NCBI GenBank assembly: GCA_022787565.1
Contig: JALFVN010000073.1
Span: forward strand, 24,265 to 88,264
Length of the DNA: 64,000 bases
Reading direction: 5' to 3'
From: Clostridiales bacterium
Lineage (GTDB): Bacteria > Bacillota > Clostridia > Oscillospirales > Oscillospiraceae
Shown here: positions 58,898 to 59,139 of the stretch, in pieces
How the letters are laid out: the number at the start of each line of letters is the position of its first letter
Position numbering within the stretch: position 1 is the first letter of the stretch
Program-made: the position numbers and the translations under genes
Notes under the pieces: generated by a model
What the model was told of the DNA's origin: nothing
Seen by the model: only the letters and a program-made list of their open reading frames with translations
Database searches by the model: none

Positions 58898-58926
58898 TTG
58901 ACTTCACCGCCACATAGTGCTAAAGT
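58898..58926 (+). promoter_or_regulatory. Sigma-A-type promoter candidate with extended -10
   Basis: TTGACT, then 17 nt, then TAAAGT, preceded by TGc. The resulting leader is ~205 nt. Confidence 0.5.
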
Positions 58927-58953
58927 GAAGCCATCCCCAATGGAGGCATCATT

Positions 58954-59037
58954 ATGTATAAGTTCCGTTTTGCGTTTGCATATGACTTTTGCTATTACTT
59001 CTTTAGAAGCTGTAATAGTCATTTGTGCTGCAACTAA
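58954..59037 (+). CDS. Candidate leader peptide, Phe/Tyr-rich (27 aa)
   Basis: GGAGG lies 8 nt upstream of the ATG. The ORF encodes MYKFRFAFAYDFCYYFFRSCNSHLCCN*, with 6 Phe, 4 Tyr and 4 Cys. It is followed by a terminator hairpin. Confidence 0.35.
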   Translation: MYKFRFAFAYDFCYYFFRSCNSHLCCN

Positions 59038-59063
59038 CGGATCAGATACCCATTAGAGATTAT

Positions 59064-59095
59064 GAGGCTGCACAGATGACATTCTGCGCAGCCTC
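59064..59095 (+). terminator. Leader terminator/attenuator hairpin
   Basis: gaggctgcacag-atgacatt-ctgcgcagcctc (11 bp plus 1 mismatch) followed by ctttgtcgctatt. It lies 45 nt upstream of the SBP ATG. Confidence 0.45.
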
Positions 59096-59139
59096 CTTTG
59101 TCGCTATTGGAGAAAATGTTAATTTGGAGGAAACAAAAA

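What the first reader, a model, noticed from the sequence alone, without database searches (positions are those of the whole stretch)
58898..59139. Phe/Tyr-rich leader ORF with terminator and alternative pairing upstream of an ABC importer: candidate ribosome-mediated attenuator
Seen in sequence:
- A good promoter candidate (TTGACT-17-TGcTAAAGT) gives a ~205-nt leader.
- The leader contains an ORF with its own GGAGG RBS encoding MYKFRFAFAYDFCYYFFRSCNSHLCCN. Of 27 residues, 10 are Phe or Tyr, clustered at codons 4-17.
- A hairpin-plus-T-rich tract follows at 59064-59108.
- Nucleotides 59024-59031 (tgtgctgc, the last sense codons of the leader ORF) can pair 7/8 with the 5' arm of that hairpin (59067-59074).

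Established knowledge:
- Classical attenuators such as pheL and the pheST leader use runs of regulatory codons in this way.
- Transporters with this ABC_sub_bind-type binding protein have been predicted by comparative genomics to import tryptophan or aromatic amino acids, under T-box control, in other Firmicutes.

Inference:
- A ribosome that reaches the stop codon would mask the anti-terminator and allow termination.
- A ribosome stalled at the Phe/Tyr codons would leave the anti-terminator free and allow readthrough.
- Leader-peptide attenuation of a transporter is uncommon in Firmicutes.
Basis: partly seen in the sequence, partly recalled or inferred. Interest (0 to 1): 0.62.

Follow-up and report, generated by a model that had tools for sequence, protein, structure and literature searches.

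The report
Tyrosine/phenylalanine leader-peptide attenuator of an importer
A 27-codon mini-gene rich in tyrosine and phenylalanine codons, followed by switchable RNA hairpins and a transcription stop signal, very probably turns on a tyrosine-type uptake system when these amino acids run short; the mechanism is classical, but I found no published description of this family in gut Clostridia.

Summary
The promoter, SD and ATG, 27-codon ORF (4 Tyr, 6 Phe), terminator hairpin and alternative pairing are all present.

- 40 of 79 upstream regions carry an SD-ATG mini-ORF with a Tyr run. None do on the reverse complement, and shuffles average 0.42.
- These ORFs occur in at least three unrelated RNA architectures that share only the in-frame YY(F) codons.
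- In the window's architecture (18 loci), the aromatic codons form the 5' arm of hairpin P1.
- The 3' arm of P1 holds the near-invariant UUUGUGCUGC, which pairs with the 5' arm of the terminator in 98.8% of cells.
- The ORF's stop codon places a terminating ribosome on that strand.
- No Rfam family or T-box matches.
- The binding protein is closest to the tyrosine-binding CD0873 of C. difficile and keeps both of its Tyr-specificity residues.

Caveats:
- Nothing is shown experimentally.
- The window's U-tract is weak.
- Phe rather than Tyr could be the real signal.
- A TrpR/HisR-type operator-like motif near the promoter hints at a second layer of control.

Verdict: a real ribosome-mediated attenuator, a new member of a known kind, of moderate interest.

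The parts
58877..58896 (.). Candidate operator: CGATTTAAATGCAAAAAGTG, abutting the -35 box. Tentative, and not part of the attenuator proper.
   Evidence: It matches 11 of 14 specified positions of the published HisR/TrpR-family consensus cacTTTAnnnnnnTAAAgtg (PMC9413887; scored). It is conserved in L001, L002 and L009.
58898..58926 (+). Promoter: -35 TTGACT, 17-nt spacer, extended -10 TGcTAAAGT.
   Evidence: Found by the promoter scan. TTGACTT and GTGCTAAAGT are invariant or nearly so in 18 related leaders.
58942..58946 (+). Shine-Dalgarno sequence GGAGG of the leader ORF, 7 nt before the ATG.
   Evidence: Seen in the sequence. An SD plus ATG at this place is present in all 18 type-1 loci.
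58954..59037 (+). Leader ORF: 27 codons plus TAA, encoding MYKFRFAFAYDFCYYFFRSCNSHLCCN.
   Evidence: Listed as an ORF. Homologous in-frame ORFs of 15-34 codons occur in 17 other type-1 loci. 40 of 79 orthologous upstream regions hold a Tyr-run mini-ORF, against a mean of 0.42 in shuffles.
58963..59004 (+). Regulatory codon stretch: codons 4-17 hold 6 Phe and 3 Tyr. The conserved TAT TAC doublet is at 58993-58998.
   Evidence: Seen in the sequence. A YY doublet is present in frame in all 18 type-1 leaders, at codon 8 to 14.
58970..59033 (+). Hairpin P1, the anti-antiterminator and possible pause hairpin. The 5' arm is the aromatic codons. The 3' arm includes the antiterminator strand.
   Evidence: Minimum-free-energy fold of -17.7 kcal/mol. 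The equivalent hairpin forms in all 18 loci. P1 plus the terminator are 81.5% paired across the alignment, against 29-55% when slid.
59022..59031 (+). Antiterminator 5' strand, UUUGUGCUGC. These are the last sense codons of the leader ORF.
   Evidence: Nearly invariant in 18 loci. It pairs with 59067-59076 in 98.8% of alignment cells, against 28-60% when slid.
59064..59095 (+). Terminator stem-loop. Its 5' arm (59067-59076) is the partner of the antiterminator strand.
   Evidence: -22.4 kcal/mol. 6 of 12 pairs show compensatory double changes across relatives.
59096..59108 (+). U-rich tail CUUUGUCGCUAUU. It is weak in this genome.
   Evidence: Seen in the sequence. Relatives have UUUUGU or UUUUUU tails.
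59140..60144 (+). Substrate-binding lipoprotein of the ABC importer (PF04392), of the CD0873 tyrosine type.
   Evidence: Pfam E = 1.5e-54. Closest solved structure is PDB 6HNI, E = 6e-52. Glu261 and Tyr277 align with the Tyr-specificity residues Glu-263 and Tyr-279 of CD0873.
60176..61132 (+). ABC permease (BPD_transp_2).
   Evidence: Pfam E = 5.4e-27.
61125..61925 (+). ABC ATPase.
   Evidence: Pfam ABC_tran E = 1.5e-28.

Best explanation
This is a classical ribosome-mediated (leader-peptide) transcription attenuator that senses charged tRNA-Tyr and/or tRNA-Phe. It controls a three-gene ABC importer whose binding protein is of the tyrosine-binding CD0873 type.

Proposed mechanism (inferred, not shown):
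- Transcription starts about 58933.
- The nascent leader folds into hairpin P1 (58970-59033), which locks away the strand UUUGUGCUGC.
- **Tyr and Phe plentiful.** The ribosome translates the 27-codon ORF to TAA (59035). There it sits on UUUGUGCUGC, or after release P1 re-forms. Either way the terminator (59064-59095) folds and most transcripts end near 59100.
- **Charged tRNA scarce.** The ribosome stalls on the Phe/Tyr codons (58963-59004), which are the 5' arm of P1. P1 cannot form, so UUUGUGCUGC pairs with the terminator's 5' arm (59067-59076) as it emerges. The terminator is pre-empted and the importer genes are transcribed.
- **No translation.** P1 forms and the default is termination.

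What is shown: the sequence elements, their mutual exclusivity, and their conservation. What is inferred: translation of the ORF, stalling, termination, and the identity of the signal.
For: 1. All parts are present at the stated coordinates, and the leader is far more structured than shuffles (z = -5.85).

2. The mini-ORF is conserved as an ORF.
- All 18 type-1 loci have an SD, an ATG and an in-frame YY doublet.
- ORF length ranges from 15 to 34 codons and the first YY sits at codon 8 to 14, so indels kept the frame.
- SBP identity among these loci falls to about 65%.
- The N-terminal residues vary freely.

3. 40 of 79 orthologous upstream regions have an SD-ATG ORF with at least 3 Tyr and an aromatic run. 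The reverse complement gives 0, and 50 dinucleotide shuffles give a mean of 0.42 and a maximum of 2. Four more loci carry weaker versions.

4. The ORFs fall into at least three architectures with unrelated RNA sequence and ORF lengths of about 19-27, 40-50 and 50 codons. The shared feature is the YY(F) run. Nearly all are followed by an intrinsic terminator before the SBP gene.

5. Leader peptide composition is Tyr 11.6%, Phe 10.6%, Trp 0.1% and His 1.1%. The SBPs have Tyr 3.6% and Phe 2.3%.

6. Structure conservation.
- P1 plus terminator are 81.5% paired, against 29-55% when slid. The terminator has compensatory double changes at 6 of 12 pairs.
- The antiterminator is 98.8% paired, against 28-60% when slid. 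Where the terminator arm varies between A and G, it always faces a U of the invariant strand.

7. Geometry. The stop codon is either just 3' of UUUGUGCUGC or 12 nt 5' of it in 14 of 18 loci, so a terminating ribosome covers that strand wholly or partly.

8. The cargo fits the codons.
- The closest solved structure is tyrosine-binding CD0873.
- Its two specificity residues (Glu-263, which bonds the Tyr hydroxyl, and Tyr-279, which excludes Trp; PMC6816091) are conserved in the window's SBP and in all 80 relatives.

9. No Rfam family, T-box or riboswitch matches the leader.

10. The upstream gene is divergent, so the terminator cannot belong to it.

11. Five further type-1 leaders recovered from metagenomes all precede the same SBP.
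Against: - There is no experimental evidence of any kind. The metatranscriptome contigs available did not cover the leader.
- The window's own terminator is sub-optimal. Its tail is CUUUGU and its stem has an A x C mismatch, and the consensus scan did not call it.
- The antiterminator shows no compensatory double changes because both strands are nearly invariant. Its support is conservation of pairing, not covariation.
- The stop codon position is not fixed. It lies 22 nt upstream of the antiterminator strand in L078 and 16-34 nt downstream in L014 and L007.
- The ORF overlaps P1 throughout. Conservation of F-A-x-A-Y..YYF may therefore be partly an RNA-level constraint, and the two cannot be separated by substitution patterns.
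- Phe codons outnumber Tyr codons in this window's leader (6 against 4). In C. glutamicum, the Phe-Tyr-Phe leader aroR responded to Phe but not to Tyr (PMC11802643).
- In the minimum-free-energy fold of the 'stalled' state, the antiterminator appears in only about 11 of 18 loci.
Confidence: 0.8

Rival explanations
1. The leader is a structured RNA switch that senses a protein or a small ligand directly. The mini-ORF is an untranslated by-product of the sequence needed for the hairpins.
For: The leader is strongly structured. The most conserved residues of the peptide are encoded by nucleotides that pair in P1. UAUUAC pairs with GUAAUAG, so the Tyr codons could be conserved for pairing alone.
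Against: - An SD and ATG are kept in frame with the Tyr codons through indels in all 18 type-1 loci.
- The same YY(F) run recurs in two other architectures where the surrounding RNA sequence is unrelated.
- There is no match to any of 4227 Rfam families.
- Such an ORF is almost never found in shuffles or on the reverse complement.
Confidence: 0.06
2. The leader peptide acts as a sequence-specific arrest peptide. It would stall the ribosome in response to a free small molecule or a drug, as TnaC and the Erm and Cat leaders do, rather than in response to tRNA charging.
For: The motif A-Y-x-Y-Y-(x)-F is conserved at the amino-acid level in type 1, and SYYxFxxVCFAxRYF in type 2. Aromatic residues are common in arrest peptides (own knowledge).
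Against: - The three architectures share only the aromatic run, not a longer peptide motif.
- The N-terminal and C-terminal residues vary.
- The cargo is an amino-acid importer of the Tyr-binding type, which fits codon sensing.
- The peptide conservation can be explained by the overlapping P1 helix.
Confidence: 0.06
3. Control is mainly by a DNA-binding repressor of the TrpR/HisR family acting at the promoter. The hairpin and ORF contribute little in this particular genome, that is, the attenuator is decaying.
For: - Motifs resembling the HisR consensus occur near or over the promoter. 46 of 79 loci score at least 11/14, against 6 of 395 shuffles. The window scores 11/14 at 58877-58896.
- Leaderless orthologues carry near-perfect sites, for example 14/14 in L013.
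- L017 and L018 keep the type-1 promoter but have lost the leader.
- The window's terminator is weaker than in its relatives.
Against: - The promoter-overlapping match in the window is only 10/14, and part of it is explained by the -35 and TG motifs themselves.
- No TrpR-like gene lies in the window or in the flanks of the loci.
- The whole attenuator is intact here and 80-87% identical to that of close relatives.
- This is a complement to attenuation rather than an alternative.
Confidence: 0.05
4. The mini-ORF encodes a functional small hydrophobic or aromatic peptide, for example a membrane micro-protein, unrelated to regulation.
For: Some homologous mini-ORFs are called as genes in public collections, though unnamed.
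Against: The peptides vary greatly in length (15-53 aa) and in sequence outside the aromatic run. They are always tied to a terminator and an alternative pairing. No family name is attached to them.
Confidence: 0.03

Closest known systems
Classical leader-peptide attenuators of Proteobacteria: E. coli trpL-trpEDCBA, pheL-pheA, pheM-pheST and hisL (own knowledge; summarised in PMC11802643 and PMC9413887)
   Same: - A short translated ORF with a cluster of regulatory codons.
- Three overlapping structures: 1:2 anti-antiterminator, 2:3 antiterminator and 3:4 terminator.
- A stop codon placed so that a terminating ribosome masks strand 2.
- Termination as the default state.
   Different: - The regulatory codons are Tyr plus Phe. 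I found no described Tyr-responsive case.
- The target is an ABC importer, not a biosynthetic or synthetase operon.
- The host is a Clostridia (Oscillospiraceae-like) gut bacterium.
- There is no sequence or Rfam similarity.
Corynebacterium glutamicum aroR-aroF leader, Phe-Tyr-Phe (Neshat et al. 2014, as summarised in PMC11802643)
   Same: A leader peptide that mixes Phe and Tyr codons and controls an aromatic amino-acid gene by ribosome stalling.
   Different: It is found in Actinobacteria and targets a biosynthetic gene. It has only three aromatic codons. It was reported to respond to Phe limitation but not to Tyr. The family here has YY to YYYYY runs, and its cargo is of the Tyr-binding type.
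His-codon leader-peptide attenuators predicted in Firmicutes: B. cereus group, Peptostreptococcaceae and Erysipelotrichales (PMC9413887; PMC2965389)
   Same: Ribosome-mediated attenuation in Firmicutes, where T-boxes normally do this job. These were predicted by the same kind of comparative evidence.
   Different: They carry His codons and control his biosynthesis operons and hisS/hisZ. They occur in different lineages and have no sequence relation to this family.
T-box-controlled TrpXYZ and related PF04392 importers, for example S. suis TrpX (PMC9382623)
   Same: The same transporter family, and the same physiological logic: induce the importer when the cognate tRNA is uncharged.
   Different: The sensor there is an RNA that binds tRNA directly. 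Here there is no T-box, and a translating ribosome reads the signal. The SBP scores 223 bits against the TrpX equivalog cut-off of 390 and carries Tyr-type rather than Trp-type pocket residues.
CD0873 tyrosine-binding lipoprotein of Clostridioides difficile, PDB 6HNI (PMC6816091)
   Same: The same fold family. Glu (which bonds the Tyr hydroxyl) and Tyr (which excludes Trp) are both conserved, and the protein is a lipoprotein SBP of an ABC importer.
   Different: Identity is only 38.7%. The 80 relatives of the window's SBP form their own tight clade. The ligand has not been measured for any member of that clade.

Membership tests
Ribosome-mediated (leader-peptide) transcription attenuator, trp/phe/his type | A short ORF with its own ribosome-binding site and start codon in the 5' leader | tested here: met
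   GGAGG-N7-ATG at 58942-58956. An SD and ATG are conserved in all 18 type-1 loci.
Ribosome-mediated (leader-peptide) transcription attenuator, trp/phe/his type | A cluster of regulatory codons for the amino acid that the operon deals with | tested here: met
   - The window's leader has 4 Tyr and 6 Phe in 27 codons.
- A YY doublet is in frame in all 18 type-1 leaders.
- Leader peptides are 11.6% Tyr and 10.6% Phe, against 3.6% and 2.3% in the SBPs.
- The SBP has the Tyr-type pocket residues.
Ribosome-mediated (leader-peptide) transcription attenuator, trp/phe/his type | An intrinsic terminator between the leader ORF and the first structural gene | tested here: inconclusive
   The hairpin is strong (-22.4 kcal/mol) and shows covariation across relatives. 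However, the window's U-tract is weak (CUUUGU) and the consensus scan did not call it. Relatives have clear terminators.
Ribosome-mediated (leader-peptide) transcription attenuator, trp/phe/his type | An antiterminator mutually exclusive with the terminator, placed where a ribosome at the stop codon masks it | tested here: met
   UUUGUGCUGC (59022-31) pairs with 59067-76 in 98.8% of cells across 18 loci. The stop codon at 59035 lies 4 nt beyond it.
Ribosome-mediated (leader-peptide) transcription attenuator, trp/phe/his type | An anti-antiterminator (1:2) helix whose 5' arm contains the regulatory codons | tested here: met
   P1 spans 58970-59033. Its 5' arm covers codons 6-17, and its 3' arm includes the antiterminator strand.
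Ribosome-mediated (leader-peptide) transcription attenuator, trp/phe/his type | The ORF is translated, and readthrough rises on starvation for the cognate amino acid | not testable with these tools
   Only assembled metatranscriptome contigs were available, and none covered the leader.
Described RNA leader families in Rfam 15 (Phe_leader, Trp_leader, His_leader, Leu and Thr leaders, T-box, riboswitches) | A covariance-model match at or near the gathering score | tested here: not met
   There were no matches at gathering score in the 64-kb window. At E <= 10 on 58780-59160, only three chance snoRNA hits of 12-15 bits appeared.
TrpX tryptophan ABC substrate-binding protein (NCBIfam NF041285 equivalog) | A score above the curated cut-off, and the Trp-type pocket (Gln in place of Tyr-279; Ala in place of Glu-263) | tested here: not met
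   The score is 222.9 bits against a cut-off of 390. The pocket positions are Glu261 and Tyr277, as in the Tyr binder and not as in the Trp binder 3LFT.
CD0873-type tyrosine-binding SBP | Glu that hydrogen-bonds the Tyr hydroxyl, Tyr that excludes Trp, and measured Tyr binding | tested here: inconclusive
   Both residues are conserved in the window's SBP and in all 80 relatives. Identity to CD0873 is only 38.7%, and ligand binding could not be tested.
hisXYZ* histidine importer of the HisR regulon (PMC9413887) | Being the locus that carries the published HisR site in the same genome | tested here: not met
   For [Ruminococcus] faecis JCM 15917, the published hisXYZ* site aactttaccgtagtacagtg is absent from the orthologous locus L073, which comes from the same strain. 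The clade here is therefore a paralogue in that genome. No leader is His-rich.

The most novel reading that the evidence does not exclude
The operon may be under two-layer control that recreates the logic of the E. coli trp operon for a tyrosine importer in Clostridia.
- **Layer 1.** A TrpR/HisR-family paralogue would read free tyrosine at a TTTA-N6-TAAAG-type operator at the promoter. The paper that defined HisR noted a paralogue, HisR2, that sits next to tyrosine decarboxylase genes.
- **Layer 2.** The Tyr/Phe leader peptide would read tRNA charging.

Orthologues in Lachnospiraceae would have kept only the repressor layer, with near-perfect operators and no leader. Oscillospirales would have added, or kept, the attenuator in at least three independently shaped versions.
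Probability: 0.3. Interest if true: 0.65.

Novelty: new member of a known kind. Interest (0 to 1): 0.45.

Why it matters
- Leader-peptide attenuation is a textbook mechanism, but it is considered rare in Firmicutes, where T-boxes dominate. I found no description of a tyrosine-codon version or of one controlling this importer family.
- This one element turns out to represent a large family. About 44 of 80 species-level orthologous loci from pig, human and rumen gut Clostridia carry it, in several architectures.
- That gives a sequence-only handle on when abundant, mostly uncultured gut anaerobes are starved for aromatic amino acids.
- It supports annotating the downstream PF04392 importer as a tyrosine (or Tyr/Phe) transporter. 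This is distinct from the paralogous 'hisXYZ*' and TrpXYZ systems with which it is easily confused.
- Tyrosine uptake feeds p-cresol and other aryl metabolites of health interest.
- The element offers a compact natural switch that could be tested directly in vitro.

Tried and rejected
- **Rfam.** I searched at gathering score over the whole window and at E <= 10 over the leader, and also searched 13 related loci. Nothing matched upstream of the SBP. T-boxes in L042 and L012 belong to neighbouring genes; the one in L042 appears to have a UGG (Trp) specifier.
- **The genome search.** I therefore could not look for more Tyr leaders, or for a TrpR/HisR paralogue, elsewhere in this genome.
- **RNA evidence.** Sequencing runs that hold this DNA are DNA metagenomes. 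The metatranscriptome runs exist only as assembled contigs from relatives and leave 58905-59087 uncovered, so they say nothing about a premature 3' end.
- **Metagenome pattern scan.** Only 5 of 120 were true leaders, and all 5 precede the same SBP.
- **Is the transporter the published HisR-controlled 'hisXYZ*'?** I considered this because the HisR consensus matches many upstream regions. I rejected it for the one strain that could be checked, where the published site is absent from the orthologous locus. No leader is His-rich.
- **TrpR-like genes.** I looked for a TrpR-like gene (ATI[ST]R motif) in the window and all locus flanks and found none.
- **Other amino-acid-run mini-ORFs.** I scanned the window for them. 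This is the only aromatic one.
- **Exact look-up of leader peptides.** Some are called as genes in public collections, but none carries a name.
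Full report
**1. The observation**

- Promoter: -35 TTGACT (58898-58903), a 17-nt spacer and an extended -10 TGcTAAAGT (58918-58926). The promoter scan found only two sites in this kilobase, against 0.5 expected.
- Leader ORF: GGAGG (58942-46) lies 7 nt before ATG 58954. The ORF runs to TAA 59035-37 and encodes MYKFRFAFAYDFCYYFFRSCNSHLCCN. It has 4 Tyr and 6 Phe, nine of them in codons 4-17.
- Terminator hairpin: 59064-59095 folds at -22.4 kcal/mol. It is followed by CUUUGUCGCUAUU.
- Alternative pairing: the proposed 7/8 pairing of 59024-31 with 59067-74 is real. It extends to UUUGUGCUGC (59022-31) against GCUGCACAGA (59067-76), with one U x U mismatch.
- Overall fold: the 216-nt leader folds at -70.1 kcal/mol, z = -5.85, and none of 200 shuffles does as well.
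- Weak point: the U-tract is poor, and the simple terminator scan did not call the site.

**2. Context**

- Three genes lie downstream: a PF04392 lipoprotein SBP (59140-60144), a permease (60176-61132) and an ATPase (61125-61925).
- The upstream gene (58204-58770, minus strand, no family hit) is divergent. The terminator therefore lies between a promoter and the gene it serves.
- Rfam 15 has no match at gathering score in the window. At E <= 10 on the leader it returns only chance snoRNA hits.
- Sequencing runs that hold this DNA are pig and other gut metagenomes. The closest relatives are Oscillospiraceae or Clostridiales MAGs.

**3. Comparative evidence for the ORF**

- A genome-collection search with the SBP returned 80 loci. 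In 18 of them ('type 1', SBP identity 63-92%) the upstream region is alignable to the window's leader.
- All 18 have an SD, an ATG and an ORF of 15-34 codons in which TAT TAC (YY) is in frame.
- The first YY sits at codon 8, 10, 11, 12, 13 or 14, so insertions and deletions have preserved the frame.
- The first four or five residues vary freely.
- Across all loci, 40 of 79 upstream regions contain an SD-ATG ORF with at least 3 Tyr and an aromatic run. The reverse complement gives none, and 50 dinucleotide-preserving shuffles give a mean of 0.42 and a maximum of 2. Four more loci hold weaker versions.
- These ORFs belong to at least three architectures whose RNA sequences are unrelated:
  - type 1;
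  - a roughly 50-codon type (..SYYxFRAVCFADRYFAAL..);
  - a 40-49-codon type (..YAYxYYFxFSRF..).
- A few other single forms also occur. What the architectures share is the YY(F) run.
- Almost all leader-bearing loci have an intrinsic terminator between the ORF and the SBP gene.
- Composition of the leader peptides: Tyr 11.6%, Phe 10.6%, Trp 0.1%, His 1.1%.
- This is the signature of regulatory codons, not of a conserved protein or of a conserved RNA alone.

**4. Comparative evidence for the switch**

- Per-locus folds show the same three structures in type 1.
- **P1.** This long hairpin has a 5' arm made of the coding stretch F-A-x-A-Y...YYF. Its 3' arm ends in the near-invariant UUUGUGCUGC.
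- **Antiterminator.** UUUGUGCUGC can instead pair with the 5' arm of the terminator.
- **Terminator.** It varies in sequence but keeps its pairing.
- On an 18-sequence alignment, P1 plus terminator are 81.5% paired, against 29-55% when the partner is slid. The terminator shows changes on both sides at 6 of 12 pairs.
- The antiterminator is 98.8% paired, against 28-60% when slid. It shows no double changes because both strands are almost invariant.
- At the two positions where the terminator arm alternates between A and G, the facing base is always U, which pairs with either.
- The stop codon lies just after UUUGUGCUGC (4 loci, including the window) or 12 nt before it (10 loci). In both cases a terminating ribosome covers that strand wholly or partly.
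- Four loci deviate: L078, L014 and L007 and L027, whose strand is CGGUGCUGC.
- In the third architecture, the antiterminator strand likewise overlaps the stop codon. In the 50-codon type, it lies a few codons before the stop.

**5. Mechanism**

- **Sufficiency.** The ribosome reaches the stop and masks the antiterminator strand, or P1 re-forms after release. The terminator folds and transcription ends near 59100.
- **Starvation.** The ribosome stalls on the Phe/Tyr codons in the 5' arm of P1. P1 is disrupted, UUUGUGCUGC is freed and captures 59067-76, and RNA polymerase reads into the importer genes.
- **No translation.** P1 forms and termination is the default.
- The energies are P1 -17.7, antiterminator about -11 and terminator -22.4 kcal/mol. 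They have the same ranking as in the E. coli trp leader (own knowledge), so the choice must be kinetic.
- P1 followed by a U-rich stretch may also serve as the pause that couples ribosome and polymerase. This is inference.
- All of this rests on sequence. Nothing here shows translation, stalling or termination.

**6. Which amino acid?**

- The closest solved structure to the SBP is CD0873 of C. difficile (6HNI, E = 6e-52, 38.7% identity). It was crystallised with tyrosine and was stabilised only by tyrosine among the 20 amino acids (PMC6816091).
- That paper names two specificity residues.
  - Glu-263 bonds the Tyr hydroxyl. It is Ala in the Phe and Trp binders 3LKV and 3LFT.
  - Tyr-279 sterically excludes Trp. 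It is Gln in the Trp binder.
- In the printed alignments these positions are Glu261 and Tyr277 in the window's protein. Both are conserved in all 80 relatives.
- The protein falls well below the NCBIfam TrpX cut-off (223 against 390 bits).
- So Tyr is the best guess, with Phe as a co-signal or alternative signal.
- In this window's leader, Phe codons outnumber Tyr codons. The C. glutamicum aroR leader (Phe-Tyr-Phe) responded to Phe but not to Tyr (PMC11802643).

**7. A second layer?**

- The promoter region is unusually conserved: TTGACTT and GTGCTAAAGT are invariant or nearly so.
- Leaderless orthologues, mostly Lachnospiraceae, carry palindromes such as CACTTTAAAGCTATAAAGTG (L013) in their short 5' regions.
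- This equals the published consensus of the TrpR-family repressor HisR, cacTTTAnnnnnnTAAAgtg (PMC9413887).
- 46 of 79 upstream regions score at least 11/14 against this consensus, compared with 6 of 395 shuffles.
- In the window the best match (11/14) is CGATTTAAATGCAAAAAGTG at 58877-58896, abutting the -35. A 10/14 match overlaps the promoter, though part of it is explained by the promoter consensus itself.
- This raised the worry that the transporter is the HisR-controlled 'hisXYZ*' histidine importer of that paper.
- For the one strain present in both data sets ([Ruminococcus] faecis JCM 15917), the published hisXYZ* site is not in the orthologous locus L073. There, the clade studied here is a paralogue.
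- No leader is His-rich.
- The same paper notes a HisR2 paralogue next to tyrosine decarboxylase genes. A Tyr-responsive paralogue acting here is therefore plausible but untested.

**8. What is known, and novelty**

- The mechanism is the classical one of trpL, pheL and hisL.
- Leader-peptide attenuators have been predicted in a few Firmicutes for histidine (PMC2965389; PMC9413887). One is reported for aromatic amino acids in Corynebacterium.
- Five literature searches found no tyrosine-codon leader, and none for this importer family in Clostridia.
- The element is not in Rfam, and the mini-ORFs that are called in public collections carry no name.
- Earlier notes of this scan describe the same family in other genomes, with the same reading. 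They are not independent evidence, but they agree.
- I file it as a new member of a known kind.

**9. Limits**

- There is no experimental support.
- The terminator is weak in this genome.
- The antiterminator is supported by conserved pairing, not by covariation.
- ORF and RNA constraints overlap and cannot be separated.
- The ligand of the SBP is inferred from two residues at 39% identity.

Noticed in passing
window 58877-58896 and 58900-58926; loci L013, L020, L025, L062, L035 (about 45-60 nt before the SBP start): Motifs matching the published HisR/TrpR-family operator consensus cacTTTAnnnnnnTAAAgtg lie at or near the promoters of this transporter across taxa. L013 scores 14/14, L020, L025 and L062 score 13/14, and the window scores 11/14. 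In type-1 promoters, GACTTTA and TAAAGTC form an inverted repeat across the -35 and -10 boxes. This suggests a repressor layer on top of, or instead of, the attenuator.
   Followed up: partly
L017 and L018, about 90 nt before the SBP start: Two rumen MAG loci inside the type-1 SBP clade keep the type-1 promoter (CTTGACTTTAAATCCAAAAAGCGTTAAAGTG). They have no leader ORF, P1 or terminator. These look like natural deletions of the attenuator.
   Followed up: no
L073 ([Ruminococcus] faecis JCM 15917) and L075, -75 to -35 before the SBP start: Two direct copies of TTTAAAGCG about 15 nt apart lie downstream of a consensus promoter. The published HisR site of this strain's 'hisXYZ*' is absent from the locus. 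The strain therefore has two paralogous PF04392 importers with similar operator-like motifs.
   Followed up: partly
L042 2177-2425 (minus strand) and L012 6085-6331 (plus strand): T-box leaders (113 and 104 bits) sit next to the Tyr-leader importer loci but serve neighbouring genes. In L042 the codon after the conserved GAA of the specifier loop reads UGG (Trp).
   Followed up: partly
type-2 loci, e.g. L042, L041, L036: -33 to -14 before the SBP ATG: A conserved CAATTTAAATCAGTAAAGGAG overlaps the SBP's own Shine-Dalgarno sequence, downstream of the terminator. It scores 11/14 against the HisR-type consensus. Its role (operator, or simply the RBS context) is unclear.
   Followed up: no
window 59064-59108: Compared with its closest relatives (L001, L002), the window's terminator has an A x C mismatch in the stem (59072 against 59087) and a shorter U run. 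The attenuator may be leakier in this genome.
   Followed up: partly
window 58204-58770 (minus strand): The divergently transcribed gene of about 189 aa upstream of the leader has no Pfam or NCBIfam match.
   Followed up: no
window 62245-63690 (plus strand): In the RsuA-like pseudouridine synthase ORF as listed (481 aa), the S4 and catalytic domains begin only at residue about 248. The first 245 or so residues match no family. This is either a long N-terminal extension or a start codon set too early.
   Followed up: no
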